DNA from: Lysobacterales bacterium
Lineage (GTDB): Bacteria; Pseudomonadota; Gammaproteobacteria; Xanthomonadales; SZUA-38
Assembly (NCBI GenBank): GCA_045106555.1
Contig: JBGCET010000035.1
Coordinates: 3,551 to 67,550, forward strand
Length of the DNA: 64,000 bases
Direction of reading: 5' to 3'
The notes beneath the pieces are model-generated. The model ran no database searches. It was not told the origin of the DNA and saw only the letters and a list, made by a program, of their open reading frames with translations. The position numbers and the translations under genes are program-made. This document shows, piece by piece, positions 1 through 62,918 of this stretch. How positions within the stretch are numbered: the stretch's first letter is position 1; every line of letters begins with the position of its first letter.

Positions 1-148
1 CTGATTGTACGGACTGGCGCAGCGCTCCGGGGTAATTCACGGAAAATGACGCTTGTGCACGCCTTTTTGCCCGTACTGATCTTATTCAGCGGTCGGTTGC
101 GCTTCTGATAGTAAGTTCTTGACCCTGTCTGACGCTCTTGAGGTATCC

Positions 149-24140: not shown

Positions 24141-24209
24141 ATTGTGGCGGAAAATTCCTTTAGAGCTCACGATAAGTGTAGCAGCCGATTGCGCTGGCTA
24201 AGCGATGGG

Positions 24210-35720: not shown

Positions 35721-35733
35721 CTCCCCGCTGGCG

Positions 35734-36744
35734 ATGAACCGGGTTCAAGCATACGATGAGTCTATGAAATTTGTGATTCGCAACGGTTACCAGAAGGACG
35801 TTGACGACCTTAAGGGCATGTCCCGTTGGGAATACTGGTGCGATGTGGTTAATCACGAGTTTGTGAATCTGGACTGCTCGGCAATCCCCGGTCAGGACAA
35901 AAGTGATTTCAGCGGAACGCTGCGAGGGGGGCTGGGCGTTGGTCAGGTCAATTTTTCTGAGGTGGTGGCTATGCCTCAATTTGTTCAGCGATCGCGGCAA
36001 CGGATTGCCCGCGCGACCAAAGACGATTTTCTCATCAGCTTCCAGCTGGAACGCGAATGCGTGGTGCGCCAATCGGGCCGCGAAGCGCTGCTAAAACCCG
36101 GTAGTTTTGCGCTCTACGACAGCGCGTCGGAATACTCTCTGGCGTTTGCTCGCCCATTCCACCAGTTCGTTTTGCAGATGCCCCGAGATGTGTTGTCTCG
36201 GCATCTGATGGAGCCTGAGAAGTATACCGCCATTCCCATCAGCGCCAATGAAGGAATGGGGCTGATACTGAAGAACTTTCTTTACTCCCTGGTGGGCGAA
36301 CTCAGCGCTACCGACGAACCGATCAACGACCAGCTGTCCGACAATCTGGTCAACATGATTGCGCTAACCTTCAGTTCAACGGTCATCACCAGCAAATTGA
36401 TTGAGACCGACTGCGTCAAAGAAGCGCTGATGCGAAGGTTGCGTCAGTTCATCGACAACAATCTGTTCGACCCCCGATTGAATAACGCGCGCATTGCGGA
36501 ATCTCAGAACATCAGTGTGCGCTACCTCTACAAGCTGTTCTCCGGTGAAGCTGAATCCGTTCACGAGATGATCATGCGCAAGCGGCTGGAGGCTTCCAGG
36601 GCGATATTGATGGATGAGCACACGCGTAGGCCCTCCATCGAAAGCCTGGCACATCACGTAGGTTTTGCCAGTGCCGCCCATTTTTCCCGAGCCTTCAAAA
36701 AGCGCTTCGGCGCCAGTCCCAGCGACGTATCGCCTCAGGCATGA
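35734..36744 (+). CDS. AraC-family transcriptional regulator (effector-binding N-domain + HTH)
   Basis: The maximal ORF (35647) would overlap the nitrilase gene by 74 nt; ATG codons at 35734 or 35764 avoid this. C-terminal HTH is ARIAESQNISVRYLYKLF...GFASAAHFSRAFKKRFG. Confidence 0.8.
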   Translation: MNRVQAYDESMKFVIRNGYQKDVDDLKGMSRWEYWCDVVNHEFVNLDCSAIPGQDKSDFSGTLRGGLGVGQVNFSEVVAMPQFVQRSRQRIARATKDDFLISFQLERECVVRQSGREALLKPGSFALYDSASEYSLAFARPFHQFVLQMPRDVLSRHLMEPEKYTAIPISANEGMGLILKNFLYSLVGELSATDEPINDQLSDNLVNMIALTFSSTVITSKLIETDCVKEALMRRLRQFIDNNLFDPRLNNARIAESQNISVRYLYKLFSGEAESVHEMIMRKRLEASRAILMDEHTRRPSIESLAHHVGFASAAHFSRAFKKRFGASPSDVSPQA

Positions 36745-36781
36745 AAAGGCGTGTTCAATCCGCAATTCACAGGGTAAGACC

Positions 36782-37822
36782 ATGACGCAAAGTACTACCG
36801 GTAATCGCACCTACTCGCTGAAGATGCCCGACGGCTGGGAGCCGCCTTATCCGTCGTTCATGTCCGAATTTGACGACAATAGAACGACGGTGGTGATGTG
36901 CTTGATGGGGTGCCAATACGATGAGGGCCATCGTCCCGACGCGCTGGCTCTGGTTCAACAGCTGAGAGCGCTGATGCTGGAATTTGGCCAGGCGGCCTAT
37001 GTGGACTTATCCGAATGTGAGGCCGACAGTGCAGGGCGACGGCAACTCGTGGCCACGGGCTATTGGTTTGAACCCGAACCTTTGCGCCGTTTGTTTGAGT
37101 CTGAGGGGTTTACTCAAACTTGGGGTGCCCATACCCAGGCGGATCTTCCTTATGGCGTGTTTCGTGAGGTATTCAACTTTCCCATGAGTCGGTTCGAGAC
37201 CCTGCATTCCGGTCCGGATCATCTGGTGGGTATTGCCAATGTGCGCGACGGCATTACCGAGCCTATTCCCCGCCATGCCTATTGGGGCAGCATGCGCGAT
37301 CGAATACCGGACGCAGCCATTGACCGGTTTGAGGCCAACGAGCGCGTCCAGGTGCTGGATCAAGATGCTCACAGCGTGACCATTCGGCCTAACGTGAATC
37401 TGGCCATTATCCGCTCTGGCCAGGACATCACTGACGCGGTGGACGAGGAACGCGCTCAGTACTCCAACGATGTTGAGCCAACCCTGGTTAACGGCATGAA
37501 CTTTCTGCGCGACGAAGGCGAGGAGGTGAAGTGTTATGACTGCCGATTTTTCCGCTTTGTCGATGAGCACGGGGAACCGTCAGACCATACGTACGGCTAT
37601 GCGTATTTTCAGTCGCTTGAGGAGCTGGAAAAGTGGGCTGAGCATCATCCCTCTCACAACGCCATCTTTGGTTCTTTCTTAGAGTTTGCACCCAAGTATG
37701 GCGAGGACATGCGCTCACGGTTTTGGCACGAAGTCGCGGTGCTGCCGGCAGACGATCAGTTTGCTCAGTATGTGAACTGCGCCGAGGGCACCGGGCTGTT
37801 GGGTGGCCTGAACCCCCGATAG
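36782..37822 (+). CDS. oxd: Aldoxime dehydratase (heme enzyme, Oxd family)
   Basis: ATG at 36782. Blocks HAYWGSMRDR, LAIIRSGQD, EPTLVNGMNFLRDEG, LEKWAEHHPSH and FWHEVAVL..YVNC match the Oxd family as I recall OxdA/OxdB. Length 346 aa. Confidence 0.8.
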   Translation: MTQSTTGNRTYSLKMPDGWEPPYPSFMSEFDDNRTTVVMCLMGCQYDEGHRPDALALVQQLRALMLEFGQAAYVDLSECEADSAGRRQLVATGYWFEPEPLRRLFESEGFTQTWGAHTQADLPYGVFREVFNFPMSRFETLHSGPDHLVGIANVRDGITEPIPRHAYWGSMRDRIPDAAIDRFEANERVQVLDQDAHSVTIRPNVNLAIIRSGQDITDAVDEERAQYSNDVEPTLVNGMNFLRDEGEEVKCYDCRFFRFVDEHGEPSDHTYGYAYFQSLEELEKWAEHHPSHNAIFGSFLEFAPKYGEDMRSRFWHEVAVLPADDQFAQYVNCAEGTGLLGGLNPR

Positions 37823-51629: not shown

Positions 51630-52511
51630 ATGCATACTTGGGCACAGTGGTTGTTTTACATCGTATTTGCGGGTCAGATCTGGCTCGTTTCTCGGTACTT
51701 TCCGCGCAGGCAGGAGGCGCGCATGCGCCATGTGCTGGAAACTTATCCACCCGAAGAGTTCCCTCGCCTGTATCCCCGCTCGCGGGACTACTACGTGGGG
51801 TCACTGCTCGCTTATCGTTGGGCGAACAAGGCCATCTCGGCGTTGGGCGTTGTGGTGTTACTGGCCCTGGTATTTGTTGTGGACCACGCCAACTTTGCTG
51901 ACGATGGATATGTTTCTGAAATCTGGCCACTGCTGTTCGCAGCCGTTCAGTTTATTCCTCTTATCGCGCTTGAGATTTCCGCCTGCGGTCAGTATCGAAT
52001 GATGCGTCGGCTAAACACTGCCAGCGTGCGCCGAGCGCCACTGGTGCCCAGACGTCTCAGCGATTTTGTGTCGCCGTTAACATTGAGTGTCGCCGTGGTT
52101 TTGATTGTTGCCGCCGTGGGGTTTGATGCGGCGCTCAATGGCGCTGATCATGGTGGCATCGCGGGCGCTTTCACCCGCTCGTTAGGTCTAATCTTTGGCA
52201 ATGGCGTGATCGCTATCTCCGGCGCCATGATGTTGCGAGGGCGCAAACCCAACCCCCATCAAAGCGCTCACGATCGGGCGCGGCACATCTCCGCTGCGTT
52301 AACCTCGTCGGTTTGCGTCAGCATTGCGCTCAGCGTATTTCATATGGCCGGCACCCTGGATCGGGCGTTCGACCTGGATTACCTGGACGCCACCATCAGC
52401 AGTTTGTACGTGGTGATTATTGCCAGCCTGTCCATTGGGTATTTGATGCAGAAGCTGACCCTTCGTCCCTCGGACTTTGAGGGCTACCGAGACGACCCTA
52501 CAAGCGCCTGA
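51630..52511 (+). CDS. Integral membrane protein, unknown function (co-transcribed with the YtrA-like regulator)
   Basis: 293 aa, AGGAG RBS, about 7 hydrophobic helices. Starts 9 nt after the regulator stop. Confidence 0.55.
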   Translation: MHTWAQWLFYIVFAGQIWLVSRYFPRRQEARMRHVLETYPPEEFPRLYPRSRDYYVGSLLAYRWANKAISALGVVVLLALVFVVDHANFADDGYVSEIWPLLFAAVQFIPLIALEISACGQYRMMRRLNTASVRRAPLVPRRLSDFVSPLTLSVAVVLIVAAVGFDAALNGADHGGIAGAFTRSLGLIFGNGVIAISGAMMLRGRKPNPHQSAHDRARHISAALTSSVCVSIALSVFHMAGTLDRAFDLDYLDATISSLYVVIIASLSIGYLMQKLTLRPSDFEGYRDDPTSA

Positions 52512-52554
52512 AGGGTCGTGTGCTGTCGCGAGAATCTTTTAACCAGAGCGAAAA

Positions 52555-52896
52555 ATGACCACAAGCCAAGCAAGTGAAATGCCCACTGTTGTGATTGTTA
52601 CGTTTCCCAGCGTCTCGACGATGTCGCAAGGGGATCTGCGTCGTTTGCTGGAAGAGACGGGGCCGAAATACACCGCTATCGAAGGCCTGAAACGTAAGTA
52701 CTTTATCTCCGGTGAACAATGCGGAGGCGGCGTGTACGAATGGCGCTCCAGGCCTCTGGCTGAGCAGTTTTATACTGAAAGCTGGTACAGCCAGATGCAC
52801 GATCGCACCGGTACCAGGCCTACAGTTACCTTTTATGATGCCCCGGCCATCGCAGATGGGATAAGCCACCAGCTAGAAATTTTTGTGAGTGATTGA
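52555..52896 (+). CDS. YdhR-like small monooxygenase-fold (dimeric alpha/beta barrel) protein
   Basis: 113 aa. The YFISGEQCGGGVYEWRSRPLAEQFY pattern resembles the YdhR family. Confidence 0.45.
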   Translation: MTTSQASEMPTVVIVTFPSVSTMSQGDLRRLLEETGPKYTAIEGLKRKYFISGEQCGGGVYEWRSRPLAEQFYTESWYSQMHDRTGTRPTVTFYDAPAIADGISHQLEIFVSD

Positions 52897-52961: not shown

Positions 52962-55900
52962 CTACTCAAATCCATCGCTGAACACAAATTCTCCTTCCGG
53001 TACCAACTGCTGGTCTGCCACATTGGTATCCTGGCCTGCATCAACGTCAAGTCCGGGTACCGTCATGGGCGCGTAATCCATTCGGGTAAATTCCAGTGCG
53101 TAGTTGCCTGGCTCCAAACCTGACAACACATAGTTGCCGCTGTCATCGGTTAACGCAGGTTTTTGCAAGGGATCGTCCTTAACCGAAACCAGGATATTCG
53201 TCAGGCCTTCATTTCCGCTCAGGGTGATTCGCCCGGTGATGCGGCCCAGAGTGCCCGCAGGCCACTGGGTAATGTCATCCACATACCGAATCGATACGTT
53301 GCCACTGGGGTCACGGTACTGAACGGTCACGGTGCGGATGGTGGGTACCGATACCCCATCGAAATTCACCGTCCATTGAGACACGTAAGGCATCCAGGGG
53401 CCAAAGCGATCTTGATCCAGTCGAGCGCGGAATTCGGCGGTTGCTGGGTCTTCGTTATAGAGGGCGTTTTCCACCACCGCTGAATTTCCATCGGTACGCA
53501 GGTGATAGTCGGCGATCGAAACCGAGCCTAGTGGCGCGTTGGCGTCAGCGAGCGCAAAGCCTGAGAAAATTCGACCAGGAGCCGACAGCGAGCCGTCGGC
53601 CATTTCACCCTGAAACTGGTAGAAATACTCCTGGCCAATGTCTACCCGTCGATCCACATATTCCTGGGTTTGATGGGCGCCGGAATCAAAAGTGGTCAGA
53701 GGCAGTAACGAATCTTCGGTAAGGCCCCGCTTGAGTGTCAGATTGTCGAAGCGGCCGTAGGCAGGTAGTTTTACGGTCACTGCGTTATCGGTCAGTAGCG
53801 CTTGCTCCTCGTGCTCTGTACGTTGGGTGACCACATGGCCGCCCAACGGCATCGGCAGGGCGTCGTCGGTGGGGTCCAGCGGGTTACGTCCACCGCGCAC
53901 CTCCGAGCCGTCCATTTCGCCACCGCCATCGGTGTCGGTCAGGCAAGGACGGGTACCGCGGGTGAACTCAAAAAAGTTGCTTAACATGTCGTCGTCGCCG
54001 TCGACTGTGGCGTCATTTACATCGCCGTCCAGGCAGCTATAGCGGTCTTCATAAGAATCGGGCAGCTGATCGCCATCACGATCCGGCGGCGTGGTTTGTT
54101 GAACGACGTGGGTCACTTCATGCGCGATCAATTTTCGGCCGTCTGCCAGTTCGGCATCCAGCTGCACTTGGTAGGTGCCCCTCTGCCCGCTGCTTCCGTC
54201 GTCGGGTAAGCCGGTTGCGCTGCCGCTGTTGGATAGGAAGGAAAAGTTGATGGAGCGGGACCCAGAGCCTTCTTCCACGCGTAAAGACTCGGTTTGGCCC
54301 GTTTCTTCGCTGTCCACCGGCACGTTAATCACCTGCGTGTCGCCGTTGGGCATTTCGATGGTGGCGATTAATGAGCGTAGCGGTTGTAACCCCTGGCTGT
54401 CGGCGACAGAAAATCCGACACCAATCGGTTGGCCAACAACAAAACCCAGCACAACGTCATCGTCTACTTCCGGCAGAAAAAACCCGGTTTGCGCGTTCAG
54501 CCCGTTGGCATCAGGGATCGACACAGCGACCTCAGCCTGCTGGTTATTGGCGGCGGTGGCGGCTGTTACCTCCAAACGCCAAGTGCCTTTCACCAGGGCG
54601 CCGATAAAACTCACGGCATTACCCTCATCGCTGCGCGCCACATCGAGGTCACGGGCCAGCACTTCGCTGCCATCGGGTCGGAACAACCGCACTGACTGTA
54701 TGGAGGGCGGGGTAAACAGCGAACGAGCCGAACGCACGCCAATCACGGCGGGTGCGCTAGTATTCTCTCTGATAGGAATATCCAAACTGATGACATTGCC
54801 GACATCCAAGGCCAGTTGCTCACGCTGAATTTGCGTGCGCCCTTCAATTACGTCAGCAATCTGACCCAGGGCGGCGTGCAGATCCAGTACCTCGGTAAAC
54901 AGCGGCTGAACGTCGGCATAACGAAACTCGCCGCCGGTGGCGCGGGCAATTTCCGCCAGCAAGGCCTGGTCGGCCAACGGGCCCAGGGCGACGGTGTGGA
55001 CGATCATCCCTGAGGCCACGATGGTGTCGCGGATGTCCCGCCACAGGTCCTCTTCATTTTCCGGGCCGTCAACAACCAACACCGTGTGCTGAGCCCTTAG
55101 CGGCTCACCATCCGATAAAAACATTTGGTAGGCAGTGCGCAGTCCATCGCCGATAGCGGAGGTTCTGCCGGCGTCAGCGGACAGTCCGTTCAGCGCGACG
55201 CGAATGCGGTTGCGGTGGGTGGCGTCGGCAGCGGCTAACGGCGCCAGCGTGCGTCCATCATCATTCGGTTCAGTACCATCACCGCTAAAATCTACCAGGC
55301 CCGCGGCGAGGACGCTGTCCAGCTGTTGCAACAGGTGCAGGCCGGCGTCAGTAACGGCAGCGAGTTTTGAACCGTCTGGCGGGAATGCCATGGTGGAAGA
55401 GGTATCAATGGCCAAAATAACCTCGGTCGGCGGCGTATCGATGTAGGCCACCGCGTTGTCGATGGTTTGAACGGCTTCGCCGGCGCGGATTTCCAGCGGA
55501 TACGCACCGTCCGCCGCCTGAGGCGGCACCAACAGTTGAAGCAGATAACCATCGCCGTCAGGCACCGCCTGCAAAACCTGAGCGGGCTGATCGCCAATGC
55601 TGGCGTCGAACTGCAGCGCCGATAATCCGCTGACGGTTTTTCTGCCGTCAATCCCGGTGCTGGTGGGAACCACCGACACGGCGATGGTGCCTGGGTTGCT
55701 CGCGCTGCCGCCATAGTGTGGACGACTCTCGCCTGCCAGTGGGAAATCTACGTCGAACGTGGATTGGGGTGATTGACACGATAGGGTTACGTTGCCGATC
55801 CAGAACCCCGCCACCGGGGCGATCACCAGGTAGAGTTCGTCAAATCGATTGCTGCGTTGAAAGGTGGTGAGGGTCCAGTCCACGTCGTACTTTTTGTAAA

Positions 55901-57101
55901 ACTCGCGTGGGCGATCATTGCGATTGATCACCACGCCGTAGCTGGCCACCGCATCCGCGCCTGATGTTGTGGTGTCCGCGGCGTCGATTTCCAGTTGAAT
56001 GATCTTGTTGGCCGGACAGCTGGAAATATCGGCCTTCAGGTAGCGTGCACCAAAATATTGCACCCCTACCAGCTGAGTCACCTCCTGACCCTGGCCAATG
56101 GTCCCCAGGTCAAAATCTATCGTCACGTCGTTGTAGTTCATCATGTTAAAGCCACCGACGGGGTCTTCATCTCGGTAGGAGTATCGATTCACAAAACCGC
56201 TGCTGGCGTTACTGAGGTCAAAGTCCTTCACCAGGTTGGCGATGGTGAAATTCTGGAATGCGCTGTAGAGGCTGTGGGACTCGTCAAATAGCTTGATGGT
56301 GCTATCAGTGATCGACATGGCATCAGCTCCCTGCAGCCCTGCGGCAACTGCCTGTCCCCACCAAAGGGTTAGGAAATCAACCCCTAAGCCAGGCTCCTGC
56401 TCGTTAATGCCGTACTGCTCCGTGAGGTAGGTCCACCATAGCGCTGCGTCATAGCTGGCCAGCCAAAGGGATTGATTGGTGTCGCCAAGGTAATTGTTCA
56501 CTTGGCCCAGATAAGGCGCTGTGCAGCTGGCGCTGGGGAGCAGGTCTAAAAGGTTATAGACCTTGTCTTGCATCGCTCGAGCCTGGCCCTCGCAAACCGT
56601 GTTGCCCCAGAGGCTGCCGCATCCGCTACCACCGATCAGTTCGGCGTAGGCAAACTCCACATGGTGGAAGAGCTCATGACCGACGATCATGTTGATACAG
56701 CTGTCCGATTCGTCTGCGTAGACTGACGTGGGTAGCAGAATGCGAGAGAGGGTCGCGAAGCCGTTGTCACAGCCGCCGTTACCGTCGGGTTCTTTGCAGT
56801 CGTAAATGTCCAGCGATTTGGGCTGCTCGCTGAAATACGGGGACGCAAACAAGAAGTTGGCAAAGCCCTCGTGGTGTCCGCGCGGATTACCGGGACTGCT
56901 GGCCCCGGTTCGATCTAGCGCCAAAGCCGCCGCAAAGGCCTTGCTGGAGGGAAAAAAGTCGTCAGATGCCGGGTTAGGGTTCCACGATACCTCGTAGCCT
57001 TCGTTCAAAGTGGTTGCGGTGGACGGCAGTGGTGGTGGGGTGTTGGGCGCAAGACCCGTCATTGTCAGTCCAAACAGCAGTGCAACGGCTTGAGTATTCA
57101 T
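52962..57101 (-). CDS. 1379-aa exported multidomain protein: N-terminal HEXXH metalloprotease-like region, VWA domain, Ca-binding TSP3-like acidic repeats, CarboxypepD_reg-like domain, VFSDGFE terminus
   Basis: ATG at 57101 gives the signal MNTQAVALLFGLTMTG. HELFH at 56664..56678 with a Glu about 25 residues downstream. VWA MIDAS-like VILAIDTSSTM. Acidic repeats DRDGDQLPD, TDTDGGGEMDGSE, NPLDPTDD. ITGRITLSG..DDSGNYVLSGLEPGNYALEF. Ends FVFSDGFE-stop. Confidence 0.75.
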   Translation of the reverse strand: MNTQAVALLFGLTMTGLAPNTPPPLPSTATTLNEGYEVSWNPNPASDDFFPSSKAFAAALALDRTGASSPGNPRGHHEGFANFLFASPYFSEQPKSLDIYDCKEPDGNGGCDNGFATLSRILLPTSVYADESDSCINMIVGHELFHHVEFAYAELIGGSGCGSLWGNTVCEGQARAMQDKVYNLLDLLPSASCTAPYLGQVNNYLGDTNQSLWLASYDAALWWTYLTEQYGINEQEPGLGVDFLTLWWGQAVAAGLQGADAMSITDSTIKLFDESHSLYSAFQNFTIANLVKDFDLSNASSGFVNRYSYRDEDPVGGFNMMNYNDVTIDFDLGTIGQGQEVTQLVGVQYFGARYLKADISSCPANKIIQLEIDAADTTTSGADAVASYGVVINRNDRPREFYKKYDVDWTLTTFQRSNRFDELYLVIAPVAGFWIGNVTLSCQSPQSTFDVDFPLAGESRPHYGGSASNPGTIAVSVVPTSTGIDGRKTVSGLSALQFDASIGDQPAQVLQAVPDGDGYLLQLLVPPQAADGAYPLEIRAGEAVQTIDNAVAYIDTPPTEVILAIDTSSTMAFPPDGSKLAAVTDAGLHLLQQLDSVLAAGLVDFSGDGTEPNDDGRTLAPLAAADATHRNRIRVALNGLSADAGRTSAIGDGLRTAYQMFLSDGEPLRAQHTVLVVDGPENEEDLWRDIRDTIVASGMIVHTVALGPLADQALLAEIARATGGEFRYADVQPLFTEVLDLHAALGQIADVIEGRTQIQREQLALDVGNVISLDIPIRENTSAPAVIGVRSARSLFTPPSIQSVRLFRPDGSEVLARDLDVARSDEGNAVSFIGALVKGTWRLEVTAATAANNQQAEVAVSIPDANGLNAQTGFFLPEVDDDVVLGFVVGQPIGVGFSVADSQGLQPLRSLIATIEMPNGDTQVINVPVDSEETGQTESLRVEEGSGSRSINFSFLSNSGSATGLPDDGSSGQRGTYQVQLDAELADGRKLIAHEVTHVVQQTTPPDRDGDQLPDSYEDRYSCLDGDVNDATVDGDDDMLSNFFEFTRGTRPCLTDTDGGGEMDGSEVRGGRNPLDPTDDALPMPLGGHVVTQRTEHEEQALLTDNAVTVKLPAYGRFDNLTLKRGLTEDSLLPLTTFDSGAHQTQEYVDRRVDIGQEYFYQFQGEMADGSLSAPGRIFSGFALADANAPLGSVSIADYHLRTDGNSAVVENALYNEDPATAEFRARLDQDRFGPWMPYVSQWTVNFDGVSVPTIRTVTVQYRDPSGNVSIRYVDDITQWPAGTLGRITGRITLSGNEGLTNILVSVKDDPLQKPALTDDSGNYVLSGLEPGNYALEFTRMDYAPMTVPGLDVDAGQDTNVADQQLVPEGEFVFSDGFE

Positions 57102-57248: not shown

Positions 57249-59105
57249 TTAGTTGGGTAGGCTAAGCAAGACCTGAGTGCCTCCCTCTGGACTAGGGCAG
57301 CGGCTGAACTGACCGCCAACGGCTGTCGCCCGGCGTTTCATCGTCCGAGTGCCATACCCCTGAGAGCTTGGATTGTTGTCGTTGTCGAGTTCAGGGGCGC
57401 CTTTTCCATCATCCCGAACGGTAATCTGGGTTTCTTCGGCGTGCTGCTCCAAGGTCAGCCACAGGTGCTGAGCGGCCGCGTGTTTCACAACGTTCTGAAC
57501 GGCTTCTTGAACAAATCGCAACACGTTAATTGTGTGCCCGGGTGCCATTGGCAATTGTTCAATCTTGCTGTCCACCGTCCAGTGCAACGTTATGCCAGCA
57601 GATCTCAATAGCGGCTCGTAACGTTCTTTTAATCTCGCCATGGCGAGCACCAGGTCTTCCCCCGCAGGCGTCAGCGCGTCCAACACCATTCTTAAATCGG
57701 CAAGAATGGCGTCCAGTTCCTCACCCACGGCGCGGGGGTCCAACTCTCCGCGCCGGTTGGCAGCAATGAGGCCAACTAGCTGACCGCCCACGCCGTCATG
57801 CATATCGGCCATGATGCGTTGGCGTTCCTGGTACAGCGCAATCTGTCGCTCAGAGGCTACCCGCTGGCGACTTTCCTGCTCCAGCGCTTCGGTCTTGGCA
57901 TCCAGTCGGCGGTTAAGTTCGTCGTTGAGATCCTGGGAATTGAGCAATGCCCGGGCGATGCGATGAACCAGCACGCCGCCGTAACCTGCGGACATAAACA
58001 CAATCGCGTAGTGAGAGAGATAAAAATCGCGAATCAGCCAGTGCTGTACATCAAACAGCACGGCCACATCGTGAAGGCCCAATAGAAGTCCCAGCAGGCT
58101 GCCAACGAGCAGCCAGTGCAGGTAGACGTGGTGGCGCCGTATGAGCGCGACGGCTAACAGCGAACTGACGTATATGATCCCCAGCAGTACCATGGGCATG
58201 CTGGTCATAAAGGTGAGGTTGGCGAACTCGCTGTTGCGCCCGCTTAGCACTAGCGCCAGACCGGCGCCAAACACGGCCAGATAGAACACCCCCAGAGCAA
58301 TTTCCAACCAGCGCCTCTTGATCTCCAGAAAGCGATGCGTGAAGCAAACAAAGGCCCACAAGAACATCGCCCTGGCGAGCAGATAGGACCAGTTGGCGAG
58401 GTAGGACAGAGCAATCTGGCGGTGGCCAACAAAGCTGTACAGGTAATAGCTGAAGGCCAGGAAGGCCAGCGCCAGCCAGCCGTATTCTGCCAGCTGGGGT
58501 CTAACTACCCAGATGGTTGCCATAAATAATCCCAGCAAGACAGAGGCCGCCAGTGCCGCCAGCAGGAGATCCTGGCGAAAGAAGTCGAAGATAACGTACA
58601 CCGGTTCCAGTCGCTCCGCGGGGCCGACGTAGAAGGTGCTGAGCATCATGGTAGTACTCTCGGCCTTGAGGTTGATGCGCAGTTCATTGAGGCCGCTGGG
58701 CTTAAGCGTTTTCGGCGGTACCGGAATCCATTGGGGCTGGTATTTGTAGCTCGTTCGGAATGTGGTGGGCGGGTTGTGGACCAGATGGTCGTTAACGAAA
58801 ATCTGCGCGGTGGAGTTCATTCGCGGAATAAATACTGCGATGTCTTGACCGTCGTCAGGCCCTTCAAACTGATGGATAAAGGGGGTGGTCTGTGGTGGGT
58901 CGTCGACCCGGCGAACCAGGCCTAATTTTTGTGCGGCACGGTCGGGATGTTCGACGTCGGTAATTTGGGTGACCTCGAACTCAGCCAACTGATGAAACGC
59001 GTTACCCAGATAGCCAATGGCGCCCAGGTACGCCAGTGCCAGTATCCAGGGGGTGGCAATCGCAAGCGTGTTGAGCGCCGTCGCAGGAAGAGTCTGCGGT
59101 TTCAA
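57249..59105 (-). CDS. Sensor histidine kinase (extracytoplasmic domain + 7 TM region, HisKA_3 / HATPase_c)
   Basis: The TTG start overlaps the response-regulator stop (TTGA). About 170-aa periplasmic domain, then about 7 TM helices. H-box MADMHDGVGGQLVGL. ATPase region VRDDGKG..GYGTRTMKRRA. Confidence 0.8.
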   Translation of the reverse strand: MKPQTLPATALNTLAIATPWILALAYLGAIGYLGNAFHQLAEFEVTQITDVEHPDRAAQKLGLVRRVDDPPQTTPFIHQFEGPDDGQDIAVFIPRMNSTAQIFVNDHLVHNPPTTFRTSYKYQPQWIPVPPKTLKPSGLNELRINLKAESTTMMLSTFYVGPAERLEPVYVIFDFFRQDLLLAALAASVLLGLFMATIWVVRPQLAEYGWLALAFLAFSYYLYSFVGHRQIALSYLANWSYLLARAMFLWAFVCFTHRFLEIKRRWLEIALGVFYLAVFGAGLALVLSGRNSEFANLTFMTSMPMVLLGIIYVSSLLAVALIRRHHVYLHWLLVGSLLGLLLGLHDVAVLFDVQHWLIRDFYLSHYAIVFMSAGYGGVLVHRIARALLNSQDLNDELNRRLDAKTEALEQESRQRVASERQIALYQERQRIMADMHDGVGGQLVGLIAANRRGELDPRAVGEELDAILADLRMVLDALTPAGEDLVLAMARLKERYEPLLRSAGITLHWTVDSKIEQLPMAPGHTINVLRFVQEAVQNVVKHAAAQHLWLTLEQHAEETQITVRDDGKGAPELDNDNNPSSQGYGTRTMKRRATAVGGQFSRCPSPEGGTQVLLSLPN

Positions 59106-59752
59106 AGAATGCCCAGTTCCCGCGCTTTGTGTACCGCCTCGCCCCGGGATCGAGCGGCCAGCTTGCTGTAAATTTCTTGAGCGTAGGTGGACACCGTGTT
59201 GAACGCGATGTCCATTTCTGAAGCGATTTGCTGGTAGGTCAGACCTCTAGCCAACAGGTTCAGCGTTTGTTGCTGACGTGGTGGCAAAAAGGTCGAAGGC
59301 TCTTCCCTTGGGGCAGGCTCAGCCAACCGAATATGACTCATGATGCATTGGGCCACCGAAGGGCTCAGCGGCGGCTTGCCGTCGACAATTTCAACCAGAG
59401 CGGTGCGCAGATTGGTTTGGGTGTCCTGCTTCAGAAGATATCCCTGGGCCCCTAATCCGATCGCGTTGACGATGGTTTCCTCATCGCTGAATCCCGACAA
59501 AATAACCACCCGGGCAGGGCGGACTTCACTGTGTTGGTCCACCAGGAGTTCCAGTCCGTTACCGTCGGGCAACCCCACGTCCAGCAAGATCAGCTCAGGT
59601 TGGTTAATCGCCTGCAGTCGGCGGGCGTCAGCCAGGCTTGCGCAGGCCCATAATGAGCCTTCGCTAACCAGGTCCGCCAGGGATTCCCGCAGGTGACTTT
59701 GCAGCGCGGGATCGTCTTCTACGATCAGCAGGCTGTTGATGGGTGAGCCCAT
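59102..59752 (-). CDS. Response regulator, NarL/LuxR family
   Basis: ATG at 59752 shares 1 nt with the upstream stop (TAATG). Receiver LLIVEDDP..LILLDVGLPDGNG. HTH LTYQQIASEMDIAFNTVSTYAQEIYSKL. Confidence 0.85.
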   Translation of the reverse strand: MGSPINSLLIVEDDPALQSHLRESLADLVSEGSLWACASLADARRLQAINQPELILLDVGLPDGNGLELLVDQHSEVRPARVVILSGFSDEETIVNAIGLGAQGYLLKQDTQTNLRTALVEIVDGKPPLSPSVAQCIMSHIRLAEPAPREEPSTFLPPRQQQTLNLLARGLTYQQIASEMDIAFNTVSTYAQEIYSKLAARSRGEAVHKARELGIL

Positions 59753-61272
59753 TAAGGCAGGGCGCTCTTGGCGGCGTTGCTTGCACAATTTTCAGCGCCG
59801 GTCAGCCGGCTTAAGGGAATCACGCCCTGGTTTGCGCCATCGGTGCTGATGAAGGTCATTTGGCCATGTAAACAGGAATCGAAGCTGAGCTCAGCGGTTC
59901 CCCAGCTTTCCACGGTGGCCGCGGTTGCTTGGGCGGGGCGACCGCCAGTGGTGACCAGCAGTTCAAGCGAGGCTGTGTCGTCGGCAATGGGGCCCTGGCC
60001 AATCAGCCAGCGTTGGTTGCCGCGGTCGTCGTAGGTGTACCAGTAAGCCAGAGCTTCACCCCGGCTTTCCAGGACCTCAAGATTCACGCCTTGGGCTGGT
60101 GACTCCGGGTCGTACCATGAGCCATTGAGCCGGGCGCTAAGTGGTTCGCGTTGTCCGCTCACAGTGATTGCTGGAAGTATATGTTCGCGCAGAGCGGTGC
60201 CGATGCCTGGGCCGTCGTATTGGTAGTCTTCAGCAAGCTGCACTACCACCAGGTCGGCCTCTGGGATCATCATGATGAATTGACGCCCGTATCCGTTGGC
60301 GTAATACATGTCGAAGGTGCGGCTCAGGTCATCGGTGATGGGTTGAATCCACCACTGATAACCGTAGCCCGAGCCGGGAACGGAAAACACTTCGGGGTCG
60401 CTGGCGGGTGTGCTGTAGGTTTGGACGGATGCATCAATCCAGTCCTGGGAGATCAGTTGTTGGCTATCAAAACGTCCTCCCTGGGCCATCATCAGACCGA
60501 TGCGGGCCATGTCCGGTAACGTGAGCCACAGACCAAACCCCAGTGGCGCATTACCCAGGGGAAAGCCTTCTTCGGCAATGCAGATTTGGCGTGAGTCCAG
60601 GCAGTTGATTCCCCAGCGAATGCGGCTGATGCCCAGGGGCTCGAACAATGCCTGCTGTGCATAGGCCTGGGTGTTCAGCCCAGTGGCATCAAGCACAATG
60701 CCGGACATTAGCCCGGAAGCGCCGGTGCTGTACTGGAAGGTTTGTCCCGGCGGTTCAGCCATGGGCCAGGTGAGCACCGTTCTTAACCAGTCCGTTGAAC
60801 CCAGCATGGTGCTGATGGGATGGTCTTCGCGACCATAGGGCCACTCTATCCAGTTGTAGCCGTGGCGCTGTTGCAGCACATGCTCGATGGTAATTTGCTG
60901 ACGTAGCGGGTCTTGCTGAATTTGCGGGTATTGAGTGAAGGCACTGTTGAGCGGCGCGCTGGTGCTGATGAGACTATCGCGCACCAGGGTGCCGATGAGA
61001 ATTGAGCCCACGCTCTTGGTCACAGAGTAAATCGGCAGCGGCTCGCCCTGGTAGCCGCGGAAATATTCGCGATAAACCTCCTGCCCGCCGCGCACCACCA
61101 TCAGACCATCGACGCGCCCCAGTTCTCCGGTTGCCAGCCTTGCAGTGAGGCTGGCCAAAAGCGCCTCATCCATACCTTGAGAGGCAGGCGGGACCGCTTG
61201 CCACTCAAATGCGTAACCCCCACTAGTGAGAGCAAGAAGCAACGCTAAGGTGGTGAAAACTTTGCCCGTCAT
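59752..61272 (-). CDS. Exported serine hydrolase (class C beta-lactamase / PBP-like fold) with extra C-terminal module
   Basis: Signal MTGKVFTTLALLLALTSGGYA. S-x-x-K motif YSVTKSV. YSTGASG. The last 123 aa form the shared module. Confidence 0.8.
   Translation of the reverse strand: MTGKVFTTLALLLALTSGGYAFEWQAVPPASQGMDEALLASLTARLATGELGRVDGLMVVRGGQEVYREYFRGYQGEPLPIYSVTKSVGSILIGTLVRDSLISTSAPLNSAFTQYPQIQQDPLRQQITIEHVLQQRHGYNWIEWPYGREDHPISTMLGSTDWLRTVLTWPMAEPPGQTFQYSTGASGLMSGIVLDATGLNTQAYAQQALFEPLGISRIRWGINCLDSRQICIAEEGFPLGNAPLGFGLWLTLPDMARIGLMMAQGGRFDSQQLISQDWIDASVQTYSTPASDPEVFSVPGSGYGYQWWIQPITDDLSRTFDMYYANGYGRQFIMMIPEADLVVVQLAEDYQYDGPGIGTALREHILPAITVSGQREPLSARLNGSWYDPESPAQGVNLEVLESRGEALAYWYTYDDRGNQRWLIGQGPIADDTASLELLVTTGGRPAQATAATVESWGTAELSFDSCLHGQMTFISTDGANQGVIPLSRLTGAENCASNAAKSALP
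59755..60123 (-). other. C-terminal module copy 2
   Basis: GSWYDPESPAQGVNLEV...YWYTYDDRGNQRW...TTGG...WGTAELSFDSCLHGQMTF...RLTGAENC.... Confidence 0.6.
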
Positions 61273-61343
61273 CTGCCCATTATAGCCCGCCTTCGACCAA
61301 TGGACGTGTGACAGAAATCTCGACGCTTTTGCAGGCTGGTGGG

Positions 61344-62918
61344 TTACCTAATTGAAATGCAGCCCTCGCCCAATAGGCGGGTGATCGAAAGGGTTTGTTC
61401 TACTGGCGAACCCGCGCTGCGCTCGGTCAGCTGAAAGGTGACGGTGCCGTTGGCGCAATCTTGAAACGTGAGGTTCAGCGTGCCGGCCGGGCTGAAATCC
61501 GTTTCGCTGTCGAAATCGACCGCGCGGAGTGTGGAAAATCCGCCGCCGGCAGATTGGAATAAGGGCACGCTCAGCGTTGAAGCCAGATCCCAAGACTCCA
61601 CGTTGACACTGCCCGCGTAAAAATTGGCCTGTCCTGCGTCATCGTAGGTATACAGCACTAACGCCACATCGGTGGACACAGTATCTTCACCATCGCGAAC
61701 CATCAGGCTTAATCCATGCCCGGGCAGGTCCGGCGGAAACCATAGGCCATCGAAGGTGAGGTCCACCTGGGTGTTGAAGGCGGCGGAATGGGTCAGCGCA
61801 CCCTCCAGCGCAAATAGCCGTTGATCTCCTCGGTCGATCCAGCTGAAGCGGGGGTCGTTGTCGTAACTGAAGCGACCAGACTTAATCCGATGTTCACCCA
61901 GCAACAGGCCGTCAATGCCAATGAAGCTGCCGTCTTTTATTAACGAAAAGTGCACATGGGGGGCCCGAGACAGGCCGCCCTGGCAAACCGCAGTGATCCG
62001 GTCATCGGCGTATTTGGCCAGATCCTGACCTTTTTTCACTGATTGGCCCGTTTCCACCACTATGTCTTCCAGGTGGTAGTACTGGGTGCTCCAGCCGCTG
62101 GGGTGGGAGACGCGCATGATGCAGCGGCCATACACCTGAGCGATGCCGTCATGGGCCGCCAAAATACGGCTGCCTGACGTGTCCGTATCCCACGGCTGAC
62201 GCCAGTCCTGGCTGAAATCGATCGAGGACATAGGGTTGCCGTCGTCAGCGCCGGTATAGGTATGGGTGCCGTAAAACTCCCAGTCCTGGTTGTAGGCGAA
62301 CGGTAAATCCATTAGCGGGCGTGGTCCCGCTTTGGGTAGTGGCTGCAAAGACAGTCCGGCCAACTTTGCCAGGTTTGAGGCGTGTTTCGTCAACTCAGGC
62401 AGGTCATTTTCCATTGAGCGCTTTTGGCTCTCGTGGTGTTTCGCGGGCTTTGAGAGCTGGCTGGCCAAATTGGCAGCAAGGTTTTCGATTTTTCTGTCGA
62501 CAGTCTCGCTGGACTTGTCGGTCATGGACCTTAGCGACTCTTCTACTAACGCCAATACTGCCAGTGGGCTGACACTGTGAAATCCGGCCTGAAATAACAT
62601 TTCGTCGGCCCATGGCGTGAGGTGTGGGCGATGGGCGTCAACAAAGGCGTGAAAATCCAGCGCGGCATAGCGGCGATCCAGTAACAGCGTTTGCTGATCT
62701 GACTGAGCCACAGTTGGGTTGTTGGACAAGGTCAGAAGACACAGGACCGTGAGAATTCCAGTTTTCCCGATGAGTGTGCGGCGAAACAGAGTGCTGGCTA
62801 TAGAATTAATATTGATTGCGTTTTTCAGAGCATAGCGGATGTCAGGGGTTTTTTTGCGGCTTTTGCGGCGGCAACAGCCGCAGCGGTTGACCGTTCCCAA
62901 TATAGTCCGGCACCTCAT
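61344..62918 (-). CDS. Exported M23-family metallopeptidase with extra C-terminal module (start codon uncertain)
   Basis: M23 motifs [26 protein letters not shown]. The signal-like segment [29 protein letters not shown] begins near 62789. The only ATG opening the ORF (62918) lies 77 nt inside the upstream gene, so the true start is probably a non-ATG codon below 62842. Confidence 0.75.
61347..61748 (-). other. C-terminal module copy 3
   Basis: [17 protein letters not shown]...[12 protein letters not shown]...SAGGGF...[18 protein letters not shown]...[11 protein letters not shown]-stop. Confidence 0.55.

What the first reader, a model, noticed from the sequence alone, without database searches (positions are those of the whole stretch)
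52962..57101. 1379-aa exported protein combining a putative gluzincin protease head, a VWA domain, Ca-binding acidic repeats and the GFE tail
Seen in the sequence, from N- to C-terminus:
- A signal peptide.
- HELFH (56664..56678) with a downstream Glu at gluzincin-like spacing, set in a Cys-rich region.
- About 500 aa of beta-rich sequence.
- A VWA-like segment with VILAIDTSSTM.
- TSP3-like DxDxDG repeats.
- A CarboxypepD_reg-like domain.
- The terminal tail VFSDGFE.

The gene sits 147 nt downstream of a two-component system on the same strand. The architecture suggests a surface-associated adhesin/protease, and I cannot map it to a characterised family. It is one of three proteins carrying the unexplained C-terminal tail.
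Basis: partly seen in the sequence, partly recalled or inferred. Interest (0 to 1): 0.6.

Follow-up and report, generated by a model that had tools for sequence, protein, structure and literature searches.

The report
Secreted giant zinc protease-adhesin with new tail
This gene encodes a very large exported enzyme from an uncultured Lysobacterales bacterium that joins an uncharacterised zinc-protease head to a sticky VWA domain and calcium-binding repeats, and it ends in a seven-residue tag that these bacteria attach to many unrelated secreted enzymes exactly where other bacteria put their known surface-sorting signals.

Summary
The ORF is real. It spans 52962..57101 on the minus strand, encodes 1379 aa, and is 100% identical to an NCBI MAG protein from a Lysobacterales bacterium.

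- HELFH is at the stated coordinates. Together with E171 in an EGxAR motif it is invariant in 52 of 52 aligned homologs from several phyla, which is a gluzincin-type signature.
- The VWA domain has an intact MIDAS site.
- Three TSP3-type calcium loops are the best-conserved part of the C-terminal half.
- A CarboxypepD_reg domain precedes the tail.

Corrections:
- The segment after HExxH is about 170 aa of helical catalytic domain followed by two beta-sandwiches, not 500 aa of beta structure.
- A second HExxHxxQQ motif (DUF4157-like) at 994-1002 was missed, but it is not conserved and is modelled as a beta strand.

The catalytic domain has no Pfam model and no PDB relative by sequence. Its only relative is a distant match to NCBIfam's 'MXAN_6640 putative metalloprotease'.

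The tail, [LVI]-F-x-[DN]-G-F-E, is a portable tag specific to Lysobacterales. In orthologs from other lineages the same position holds PEP-CTERM, JDVT-CTERM, T9SS CTD, RTX or dockerin modules.

Most likely this is a secreted or surface-held metalloprotease-adhesin carrying a previously undescribed terminal targeting tag. Function, substrate and the tag's receptor are inferred, not shown.

The parts
52962..57101 (-). Whole gene, 1379 codons plus stop (TAG at 52962-52964)
   Evidence: identical to P0001
57048..57101 (-). Probable Sec signal peptide (residues 1-18, MNTQAVALLFGLTMTGLA); weak n-region
   Evidence: Aligned with clear signal peptides of homologs; inferred
56115..57044 (-). Catalytic domain, residues 20-329. 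An alpha/beta N-subdomain followed by a helical bundle; an uncharacterised HExxH family.
   Evidence: AF2 pLDDT 91.9. NF045524 hits 16/16 members, best 7.7e-14, all below its cut-off. No Pfam or PDB hit.
56664..56678 (-). HELFH zinc-binding/catalytic motif (H142, E143, H146)
   Evidence: Present in 74/74 homologs; invariant
56565..56591 (-). EGQARAMQD (E171-D179). E171 is the candidate third zinc ligand, on the helix after the HExxH helix.
   Evidence: E171, G172, A174, R175 and D179 invariant; helix 148-160 of the model
55437..56114 (-). Two beta-sandwich domains (residues about 330-445 and 470-555) between the catalytic domain and the VWA
   Evidence: AF2. Foldseek hits to ColG collagen-binding domains, C-CPE and GOLD domains.
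54837..55436 (-). VWA domain (residues 556-755) with MIDAS D566, S568, T570, T647, D678
   Evidence: Pfam; CLCA1 VWA 6pyo; profile hits PTMP1 at 1.9e-27 and CLCA1 at 1.7e-17; conservation
54102..54836 (-). Beta-sandwich region after the VWA (residues 756-1000). The first part aligns to the region after the VWA in CLCA (TIGR00868 positions up to 576).
54096..54122 (-). HEVTHVVQQ (residues 994-1002), a DUF4157/eCIS_core-like signature; probably not a catalytic site
   Evidence: Pfam PF13699 24.3 bits, covering 23 of 79 profile positions. Found in only 5 homologs at this column. Modelled as a confident beta strand.
53847..54089 (-). Three TSP3-type DxDxDGxxDxxE calcium-binding loops (residues 1005-1085)
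   Evidence: Invariant Asp/Glu; PF18884 on homologs
53247..53804 (-). Fn3-like and further beta-sandwich domains (residues about 1100-1285)
   Evidence: Profile hits to titin Fn3 and to Fn3-like protein 3mpc; AF2; Foldseek Fn3 arrays
53010..53240 (-). CarboxypepD_reg-like domain (residues 1288-1364)
   Evidence: Pfam PF13620, 6.9e-14
52965..52985 (-). Terminal tag VFSDGFE (residues 1373-1379), preceded by a Pro-containing linker (LVPEGEF)
57249..59788 (-). Upstream two-component system on the same strand: LuxR-type response regulator (59102-59788) and 7TMR-DISM histidine kinase (57249-59105). Possibly the regulator of this gene.
   Evidence: Pfam. Synteny kept in orthologs L001 and L003 and next to paralog L019.
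80..2281 (+). Second carrier of the tag in the window: ExeM/NucH extracellular endonuclease ending EIFADGFE
22779..24197 (-). Third carrier of the tag in the window: 463-472-aa exported protein of unknown family ending TVFSNGFE

Best explanation
**What it is**
The gene encodes an exported, multi-domain zinc metalloprotease-adhesin.

**Route**
After Sec export, the signal peptide is removed.

**Catalytic head**
The N-terminal domain (residues 20-329) is a gluzincin-type zincin:
- H142 and H146 of HELFH and E171 of EGQAR bind zinc.
- E143 acts as the general base.

**Substrate capture**
Two beta-sandwiches link the head to a VWA domain. Its intact MIDAS site binds a ligand through a divalent cation. 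This tethers or presents a protein or surface substrate, or possibly gates the protease as proposed for CLCA1.

**Stalk**
Further Ig/Fn3-like sandwiches, three calcium-stiffened TSP3 loops and a CarboxypepD_reg domain form a stalk.

**Terminal tag**
The last seven residues ([LVI]-F-x-[DN]-G-F-E) are a portable terminal tag specific to Lysobacterales. The tag is read after the protein has crossed the inner membrane. This directs or retains the enzyme outside the cell.

**Regulation**
Expression is probably under the adjacent 7TMR-DISM kinase / LuxR regulator pair.

**Shown versus inferred**
- Shown: the domains, the invariant residues, the confident models, the distribution of the tag and its positional equivalence to known sorting signals.
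- Inferred: catalysis, the substrate, localisation, the reader of the tag and the regulation.
For: **Catalytic site**
- HExxH is present in 74/74 homologs.
- H142, E143, H146, E171, G172, A174, R175 and D179 are invariant in 52/52 sequences. These include members at 23-27% identity and one named by NCBI as from a Promethearchaeota archaeon.
- HExxH and E171 sit on consecutive helices of a model at pLDDT 91.9, preceded by a beta strand.
- The 25-residue spacing lies within the range of gluzincins such as M2 and M3 (established knowledge).
- There is remote HMM similarity to NF045524, a putative metalloprotease family, in 16/16 members, and to DUF5700, a putative Zn peptidase, in 3/16.

**VWA and stalk**
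- The VWA passes Pfam and its MIDAS site is intact.
- The best whole-model match of the C-terminal half is the pilus adhesin SpaC, followed by Fn3 arrays.
- The HExxH-plus-VWA core is kept even in distant members that add cohesin, dockerin or invasin modules.

**Export**
- Homologs carry signal peptides.
- Conserved cysteines are present.

**Tag**
- 85 distinct tails give the consensus.
- In Lysobacterales sequence, 41 of 48 motif occurrences lie within 5 aa of a C-terminus. In other taxa, none of the 4 occurrences (1917 ORFs) is terminal.
- Carriers belong to unrelated families: M12B, M28, FG-GAP, LamG, BNR, beta-helix, DUF1501 and the ExeM nuclease. They carry Sec signal peptides, and one carries a Tat signal.
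- The three window copies use different codons, different stop codons and unrelated downstream DNA.
- Orthologs of the protease carry PEP-CTERM, a transmembrane helix plus basic cluster, or dockerin-like modules at the same position.
- Orthologs of the nuclease carry JDVT-CTERM, T9SS CTD, RTX or GlyGly-like ends.

**Regulation**
- The regulator-kinase-protease order is kept in the 82% and 55% orthologs.
Against: - No solved metallopeptidase was recovered by sequence or among the Foldseek top 50. The gluzincin fold is therefore not confirmed structurally.
- No biochemical data exist for any family member.
- The query's own signal peptide is atypical.
- The tag has no transmembrane helix or basic cluster. 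It therefore cannot work like the tripartite signals it replaces.
- No recognition machinery was found in the window.
- Three proteins carry the motif just after the signal peptide instead of at the C-terminus. This fits a binding tag but not a cleavage or transpeptidation signal.
- The two-component system is adjacent in only 4 of about 37 Lysobacterales loci.
Confidence: 0.6

Rival explanations
1. CLCA-like self-processing regulator. The metalloprotease domain mainly cleaves its own polypeptide. This releases or activates the VWA-containing part, which then acts as a ligand or adhesin. It would not be a digestive protease acting on external substrates.
For: - The VWA and the region after it give the best named hits to CLCA: TIGR00868 at 2.3e-11 over residues 561-854, and the CLCA1 VWA 6pyo.
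- CLCA1 has the same order of parts, metallohydrolase-VWA-beta-sheet-rich-FnIII. It is autoinhibited and self-cleaving, and VWA-linked allostery has been proposed for it (bioRxiv 10.1101/2025.10.18.683246).
- The HExxH-plus-VWA pair is the conserved core of the family.
Against: - The catalytic domains are not detectably related. No CLCA_N hit appeared even at E <= 10 in 16 members.
- CLCA1 is described as a metzincin. Here the invariant third residue is a Glu on the next helix, and there is no HExxHxxGxxH/D motif.
- The TIGR00868 score is 42 bits against a cut-off of 900.
- No cleavage site is identifiable.
Confidence: 0.15
2. The GFE tail is not a targeting or retention tag. It could be a structural cap, a stability or degradation determinant read by a periplasmic protease, or a maturation site. 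The protein itself is still a secreted protease.
For: - The tag is only 7 residues long, with no transmembrane helix or charge cluster.
- It is modelled as a short helix followed by disorder.
- 41% of tails have 1-5 extra residues after the Glu, so a free Glu carboxylate is not required.
- Cyanobacterial nuclease orthologs end right at the catalytic domain with no tail at all. The tail is therefore not needed for folding.
Against: - The tag is appended by a Pro-containing linker to at least ten unrelated domain families, so it caps no particular fold.
- It is strictly lineage-specific.
- It occupies the slot of bona fide secretion or sorting modules in two independent protein families.
- It also occurs at the mature N-terminus.
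Confidence: 0.2
3. Non-catalytic adhesin. The HExxH domain is a binding module or a dead enzyme, and the protein works only through the VWA and Ig-like domains.
For: - No fold or sequence match to a characterised peptidase was found.
- The C-terminal half resembles pilus and ECM adhesins.
Against: Dead enzymes lose catalytic residues. Here H, E, H and E, plus the flanking G, A, R and D, are invariant across phyla at 23-30% overall identity.
Confidence: 0.05
4. The second motif, HEVTHVVQQ (994-1002), is a functional DUF4157/eCIS_core-type zinc site. This would give the protein two metallopeptidase centres.
For: - Pfam PF13699 scores 24.3 bits, above its cut-off of 22.
- The same extended signature recurs at another position in a second subclade.
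Against: - Only 23 of 79 profile positions match.
- The motif is absent from about 64 of 74 homologs.
- The aligned segment in the other homologs is an ordinary beta strand (ARGSFAVxRE).
- AF2 models it as a confident strand. In a strand, His i and i+4 cannot chelate one metal.
Confidence: 0.03

Closest known systems
NCBIfam NF045524, MXAN_6640 family putative metalloprotease (Myxococcus xanthus type; uncharacterised)
   Same: It is the only curated model that recognises the catalytic domain. It hit 16/16 family members, best E = 7.7e-14, aligned over the HExxH and Glu helices (residues 128-294).
   Different: Scores of 34-36 bits fall far below the 140-bit cut-off, so this is a distant relative and not a member. 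That family is itself only 'putative', and no paper on it was found.
CLCA proteins (CLCA1; TIGR00868; 'CLCAsins')
   Same: - Same order of parts: metallohydrolase, then VWA with MIDAS, then a beta-sheet-rich domain, then an Fn3-like domain.
- The VWA is the closest solved relative with a name (6pyo).
- Both are secreted.
   Different: - The CLCA1 catalytic domain is described as a metzincin. Here the signature is gluzincin-type (HExxH + 25 + EGxAR).
- No similarity to CLCA_N was found.
- Two extra sandwiches lie between the head and the VWA.
- This protein adds TSP3 loops, a CarboxypepD_reg domain and the terminal tag.
- CLCAs are presented as a eukaryotic family.
Gluzincin metallopeptidases (MEROPS clan MA(E), e.g. 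thermolysin M4, M2/M3, collagenase M9)
   Same: - HExxH on one helix and a Glu ligand on the following helix.
- The Glu sits in an E-G-x-A context, as in the 'NEGxA/EEGxAE' motifs of M1 and M9 (from knowledge).
- It is a multi-domain secreted enzyme with accessory binding domains. The sandwiches resemble the ColG collagen-binding domains.
   Different: - There is no detectable sequence relationship to any Pfam or PDB peptidase.
- A fold match was not obtained.
Tripartite C-terminal sorting signals (PEP-CTERM/exosortase, JDVT-CTERM, GlyGly-CTERM/rhombosortase, MYXO-CTERM)
   Same: - A short, lineage-restricted signature at the extreme C-terminus of many unrelated exported proteins.
- It is interchangeable with PEP-CTERM and JDVT-CTERM in orthologs.
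- The many-carriers-per-genome pattern is the one used to define those signals.
   Different: - The GFE tag has no transmembrane helix and no Arg cluster.
- It is only 7 residues long.
- It tolerates 0-5 trailing residues.
- It can sit at the mature N-terminus.
- No NCBIfam model matches it.
- It is not mentioned in the survey of such signals.
VWA adhesins (Lactobacillus pilus adhesin SpaC, mussel PTMP1, integrin alpha I domains)
   Same: - A MIDAS-bearing VWA followed by Ig-like domains.
- SpaC is the top Foldseek match of the C-terminal half.
- PTMP1 is the top profile hit, at 1.9e-27.
   Different: Those proteins have no protease head. The ligand of this VWA is unknown.

Membership tests
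Gluzincin (clan MA(E)) zinc metallopeptidase | HExxH motif conserved | tested here: met
   HELFH 142-146; present in 74/74 homologs and invariant
Gluzincin (clan MA(E)) zinc metallopeptidase | Third zinc ligand is a Glu on a helix 18-70 residues after HExxH | tested here: met
   E171, 25 residues after H146, is invariant within EGxAR. It lies on helix 148-160 of the model, directly after the HExxH helix 114-136. Metal binding itself is not shown.
Gluzincin (clan MA(E)) zinc metallopeptidase | Thermolysin-like fold matching a solved member | tested here: inconclusive
Gluzincin (clan MA(E)) zinc metallopeptidase | Zinc-dependent peptidase activity | not testable with these tools
   Needs biochemistry
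NCBIfam NF045524 MXAN_6640 family | Score at or above the curated cut-off (140 bits) | tested here: not met
   34.0 and 35.8 bits for the window protein. All 16 members hit the model; the best E-value is 7.7e-14, still below the 140-bit cut-off.
CLCA (TIGR00868 / CLCA_N metallohydrolase) | Full-length model score (cut-off 900.85) and a CLCA-type catalytic domain | tested here: not met
   42.2 bits, covering only the VWA and the following region. No CLCA_N hit at E <= 10 in 16 members. HELFHHVEFAY lacks the metzincin HExxHxxGxxH/D pattern.
VWA domain with MIDAS | Pfam VWA above threshold, plus the DxSxS...T...D metal site | tested here: met
   38.7 bits against a cut-off of 23.8. D566, S568, T570, T647 and D678 align to the CLCA1 MIDAS and are conserved. 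T570 replaces the third Ser.
Bacterial TSP3 calcium-binding repeats (PF18884) | DxDxDGxxDxxE loops | tested here: met
   Three loops at 1007-1018, 1034-1045 and 1056-1067 with invariant acidic residues. PF18884 is recorded on homologs but was not reported for the query.
CarboxypepD_reg-like domain (PF13620) | Pfam score above threshold | tested here: met
   52.4 bits against a cut-off of 32.3, residues 1288-1364
eCIS_core / DUF4157 (PF13699) | Domain-length match with a conserved HExxHxxQ helix | tested here: inconclusive
   24.3 bits passes the cut-off of 22, but only profile positions 55-77 of 79 match. The motif is not conserved in the family and is modelled as a beta strand.
Tripartite C-terminal sorting signals (PEP-CTERM, GlyGly-CTERM, JDVT-CTERM, MYXO-CTERM) | Signature motif, then a transmembrane helix, then a basic cluster at the C-terminus | tested here: not met
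   The sequence ends ...EGEFVFSDGFE with no hydrophobic span or Arg/Lys. No NCBIfam sorting model hit it, whereas the tails of orthologs do hit PEP-CTERM and JDVT-CTERM.
T9SS C-terminal domain | An 80-100-aa CTD (PF18962 or related) | tested here: not met
   No such Pfam hit. Some nuclease orthologs do carry PF18962.

The most novel reading that the evidence does not exclude
The heptapeptide [LVI]-F-x-[DN]-G-F-E is a new kind of terminal targeting signal used across Lysobacterales.

**Properties**
- It is non-tripartite and has no membrane span.
- It usually sits at the C-terminus but can also function at the mature N-terminus.
- It marks Sec- and Tat-exported proteins.

**Proposed role**
It directs carriers to passage across the outer membrane or to capture on the outer membrane by a reader that has not been identified. 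It would be the functional counterpart of PEP-CTERM, JDVT-CTERM, GlyGly-CTERM and T9SS-CTD in other lineages.

**The carrier protein**
The giant HExxH-VWA protein would then be one cargo. It is also the founding example of a cross-phylum metalloprotease family with no Pfam or MEROPS-type description.
Probability: 0.4. Interest if true: 0.8.

Novelty: new variant of a known kind. Interest (0 to 1): 0.6.

Why it matters
**If the tag is a targeting signal**
- It would give a simple sequence rule for predicting the extracellular proteome of Lysobacterales/Xanthomonadales. This order is rich in lytic enzymes, predators and plant pathogens.
- It would provide a handle (a 7-residue peptide) for finding the machinery that reads it. 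For type II secretion in particular, no linear signal has ever been defined. A portable terminal tag on both Sec and Tat substrates would make that long-standing question directly testable.

**Independently of the tag**
- The catalytic domain defines a family of giant HExxH-VWA proteins. In a 50%-identity library of 1.84 billion proteins it has about 400 clusters at E <= 1e-10.
- The family occurs in Pseudomonadota, Myxococcota, Chloroflexota, Actinomycetota and others.
- It has no structural, biochemical or Pfam description.
- Its parallel with CLCA1 (protease plus VWA, with possible allosteric coupling) suggests a recurring design for ligand-gated extracellular proteolysis.

Tried and rejected
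**Structural classification of the catalytic domain**
- Foldseek against PDB returned only beta-sandwich matches in its top 50 hits.

**Sequence and profile routes for the catalytic domain**
- A profile search against PDB sequences found nothing at E <= 10.
- Pfam at E <= 10 gave only weak hits to DUF5700 and DUF1570.
- A profile search of the word-indexed protein database returned 8 unnamed fragments.

**CLCA membership**
- Rejected. Only the VWA region matches, and the catalytic class differs.

**Second HExxH as an active site**
- Rejected as unlikely.

**The tail as a DNA repeat or mobile-element scar**
- Rejected. The three window copies use different codons and different stop codons, and their downstream DNA is unrelated.

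**The tail as a chance ending**
- Rejected. None of the 1917 control ORFs ends this way.

**The tail as a known sorting domain**
- No NCBIfam model matches it.
- Literature searches for DGFE, MXAN_6640 and Xanthomonadales sorting signals found nothing relevant.

**Sorting or secretion machinery in the window**
- None was found.

**Promoter and terminator scan around the gene**
- The number of sites found did not exceed the shuffle expectation.

**The 123-aa ORF downstream (52498-52869, minus strand)**
- It has no Pfam hit and no counterpart in the 82%-identical locus L001. It is probably not a gene.

Full report
**Observation**

The ORF at 52962..57101 on the minus strand is intact and encodes 1379 aa ending VFSDGFE. 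An identical protein is recorded from a 133-kb contig of a Lysobacterales MAG. NCBI names it only 'carboxypeptidase regulatory-like domain-containing protein'.

The database search found 74 homologs:
- Nearly all are full length (1370-1450 aa).
- Most share 30-79% identity with the query; a few distant members share 25-29%.
- None is characterised.

**Catalytic head**

Conservation:
- HELFH (residues 142-146, nt 56678..56664) is present in all 74 homologs.
- In a 52-sequence alignment, H142, E143, H146, E171, G172, A174, R175 and D179 are invariant. That alignment includes members at 23-27% identity.
- The same residues are invariant in a 16-sequence alignment of the catalytic domain alone.

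Structure model:
- An AlphaFold2 model of residues 20-555 has mean pLDDT 91.9.
- It shows a small mixed beta sheet, then a long helix carrying HExxH.
- The next helix carries E171, followed by a helical bundle up to about residue 310.
- Two beta-sandwiches follow.

This arrangement, HExxH plus a Glu 25 residues later on the following helix in an E-G-x-A context, is the gluzincin pattern (established knowledge of clan MA). I could not confirm the fold against solved structures:
- Foldseek against PDB listed only matches to the sandwich domains: ColG collagen-binding domains, C-CPE and GOLD.

By sequence the domain is orphan:
- No PDB hit even at E <= 10.
- No Pfam family. Three of 16 members weakly touch DUF5700, a 'putative zinc dependent peptidase'.
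- A consistent but sub-threshold match to NCBIfam NF045524, 'MXAN_6640 family putative metalloprotease': 16/16 members, best 7.7e-14, 34-36 bits for the query against a cut-off of 140.

Family size and spread:
- A full HMMER scan of 1.84 billion representative proteins found 1038 clusters at E <= 1e-3, 406 at <= 1e-10 and 214 at <= 1e-30. Most are 1250-1600 aa long.
- In GTDB genomes the family occurs in Lysobacterales, with at least four paralogs in one MAG.
- It also occurs in Myxococcota, Chloroflexota, Nocardioides, Halieaceae, Gemmatimonadota and others.

**Rest of the protein**

- VWA: Pfam places it at 561-726. Its MIDAS residues D566, S568, T570, T647 and D678 align with those of the human CLCA1 VWA (6pyo) and are conserved. 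The family profile hits mussel PTMP1 (1.9e-27), CLCA1 (1.7e-17), BatB and collagen VI and integrin I domains.
- CLCA overlap: TIGR00868 (CLCA) aligns over 561-854, that is, the VWA plus the following sandwich. The score is 42 bits against a cut-off of 900.
- TSP3 loops: three DxDxDGxxDxxE loops at 1007-1067 contain most of the invariant residues of the C-terminal half.
- C-terminal domains: Fn3-like sandwiches and a CarboxypepD_reg domain (1288-1364) follow.
- Model: the model of residues 556-1379 has pLDDT 89.5. Its best whole-model match is the pilus adhesin SpaC, followed by Fn3 arrays.
- Conserved core: distant family members keep the HExxH-plus-VWA core while adding cohesin, dockerin or invasin modules.

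- The segment between HExxH and the VWA is not 500 aa of beta structure. It is about 170 aa of helical catalytic domain plus two sandwiches.
- A second HExxH was missed. HEVTHVVQQ (994-1002) formally passes Pfam's eCIS_core/DUF4157 threshold, but it matches only 23 of 79 profile positions.
- That motif occurs at this column in only five homologs, and a similar signature sits at another column in five others. It is a confident beta strand in the model. I regard it as non-catalytic, but its recurrence is unexplained.
- The query's signal peptide lacks a basic n-region. Homologs have canonical ones at the aligned position.

**The tail**

Occurrence in the window:
- Three window ORFs end in GFE.
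- They use different codons, different stop codons and unrelated 3' DNA. Conservation is therefore at the protein level.

Consensus and position:
- Eighty-five distinct tails from the homologs and loci give [LVI]-F-x-[DN]-G-F-E.
- 59% stop at the Glu. The rest carry 1-5 more residues.

Census:

| Sequence set | ORFs scanned | Motif occurrences | Terminal occurrences |
|---|---|---|---|
| Lysobacterales (33 loci plus the window) | 1768 | 48 | 41 within 5 residues of a C-terminus; 3 a few residues after a signal peptide |
| 47 loci from other phyla | 1917 | 4 | none |

Carriers:
- They belong to unrelated families: reprolysin-like M12B, M28, FG-GAP, LamG/Big_7, BNR/Calx-beta, beta-helix, DUF1501 and an ExeM/NucH nuclease.
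- They have Sec signal peptides, and in one case a twin-arginine signal.

The same slot holds lineage-specific modules in orthologs.

- In the protease family:
  - PEP-CTERM in delta/Myxococcota/Gemmatimonadota members. TIGR02595 and several PEP-CTERM family models hit these tails.
  - A transmembrane helix plus basic cluster in a protein that NCBI names as from a Promethearchaeota archaeon.
  - Dockerin-like repeats plus PPGPSGLxP in Halieaceae and other gammaproteobacteria.
  - h-[YF]-L-P-h-h-h-[KR] in Chloroflexota.
- In the nuclease family, after the same SDHDPxxVGL end of the catalytic domain:
  - the GFE tag in the six closest relatives;
  - nothing in cyanobacteria;
  - RTX ends, T9SS CTD (PF18962) and JDVT-CTERM (40.7 bits);
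  - a weakly GlyGly-like end (E = 0.19);
  - the Chloroflexota tail.

The tag has no transmembrane helix or Arg cluster. It therefore does not belong to the tripartite class reviewed by Haft. No NCBIfam model and no paper found here describes it.

**Context**

- The gene lies 147 nt downstream of a LuxR-type response regulator and a 7TMR-DISM histidine kinase on the same strand.
- That arrangement is kept in the 82% and 55% orthologs. A similar pair sits just downstream of one paralog. It is absent from the other loci.
- No secretion or sorting genes are in the window.
- The promoter and terminator scans were uninformative.

**Interpretation**

The best-supported reading is an exported zinc metalloprotease of an undescribed gluzincin-type family. 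It is fused to a MIDAS-bearing VWA domain and a calcium-stabilised Ig/Fn3 stalk, and it ends in a Lysobacterales-specific terminal tag that targets or retains it outside the cell.

- The architecture parallels CLCA1 (metallohydrolase-VWA-BSR-FnIII). In CLCA1 the VWA is thought to gate protease activity.
- The catalytic domains differ in class, and membership fails every test.
- Because the tag sits on Sec and Tat substrates and at either terminus, a binding-type recognition is more plausible than a sortase-like cleavage. This is inference.

**Verdict**

- The protein is a new variant of known kinds of parts.
- The most novel element is the tag, which deserves a genome-wide phylogenetic-profile search and a simple deletion/fusion experiment.

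Noticed in passing
L040, L046, L048, L050-L052, L060, L067, L068, L078 (C-termini of the family ORFs); P0070; nuclease homologs P0313, P0226: Chloroflexota orthologs of both the protease and the ExeM nuclease end in a short tail, h-[YF]-[LV]-P-h-h-h-[KR]-COOH (for example TFLPIIIK, LYLPIFLK, SVYLPLVVK). No NCBIfam model matches it. It looks like a second undescribed lineage-specific C-terminal tag.
   Followed up: partly
L054, L055, L062, L069, L072, L075; P0065, P0066: Halieaceae, other gammaproteobacterial and Deferrisomatales orthologs end in dockerin-like EF-hand repeats followed by a conserved F-x-x-PPGPSG-[LTV]-x-P terminus. Several Desulfobacterota-type orthologs end in dockerin-like repeats plus FGRTDC(P).
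   Followed up: no
window 54096..54122 (-) and about residue 1096 of the same protein: An HExxHVxQQ signature (DUF4157/eCIS_core-like) occurs at two different alignment columns in two subclades of the family. Its recurrence is unexplained.
   Followed up: partly
L006 9187-11610, L011 14052-15113, L028 5971-8448: Three Lysobacterales proteins carry the same F-x-[DN]-[GS]-F-E motif 3-8 residues after the predicted signal-peptide cleavage site instead of at the C-terminus. Two of them lie immediately downstream of a family member.
   Followed up: partly
window 80..2281 (+): An ExeM/NucH-family extracellular endonuclease that carries the GFE tag directly after its catalytic domain. It is followed by an ABC-F ATPase gene.
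   Followed up: yes
window 22779..24197 (-): The third GFE-tagged protein, about 463 aa. It has a signal peptide and no Pfam family.
   Followed up: partly
window 6474..8810 (+): A 778-aa protein with an N-terminal TIR domain and TPR repeats, next to an M64 (IgA-peptidase-like) metallopeptidase gene at 4387..6378 (-).
   Followed up: no
window 34692..37822 (+): A nitrilase-family CN_hydrolase, an AraC-type regulator and a haem-containing (aldoxime-type) dehydratase lie in a row. This looks like an aldoxime-nitrile utilisation cluster.
   Followed up: no
window 29520..31592 (-): A 690-aa protein combining multihaem cytochrome c motifs with C-terminal TPR repeats, adjacent to a DsbA-like gene.
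   Followed up: no
window 59752..62918 (-): Upstream of the two-component system, on the same strand, lie a 506-aa beta-lactamase-family protein and a 524-aa M23 peptidase. With the M64 peptidase and the gamma-glutamyltranspeptidase, the window is rich in exported hydrolases.
   Followed up: no
window 52498..52869 (-): A 123-aa ORF directly downstream of the gene has no Pfam hit and no counterpart in the 82%-identical locus L001. The oppositely oriented 293-aa ORF (51630..52511) and the GntR gene are conserved there. The 123-aa ORF is probably spurious.
   Followed up: yes
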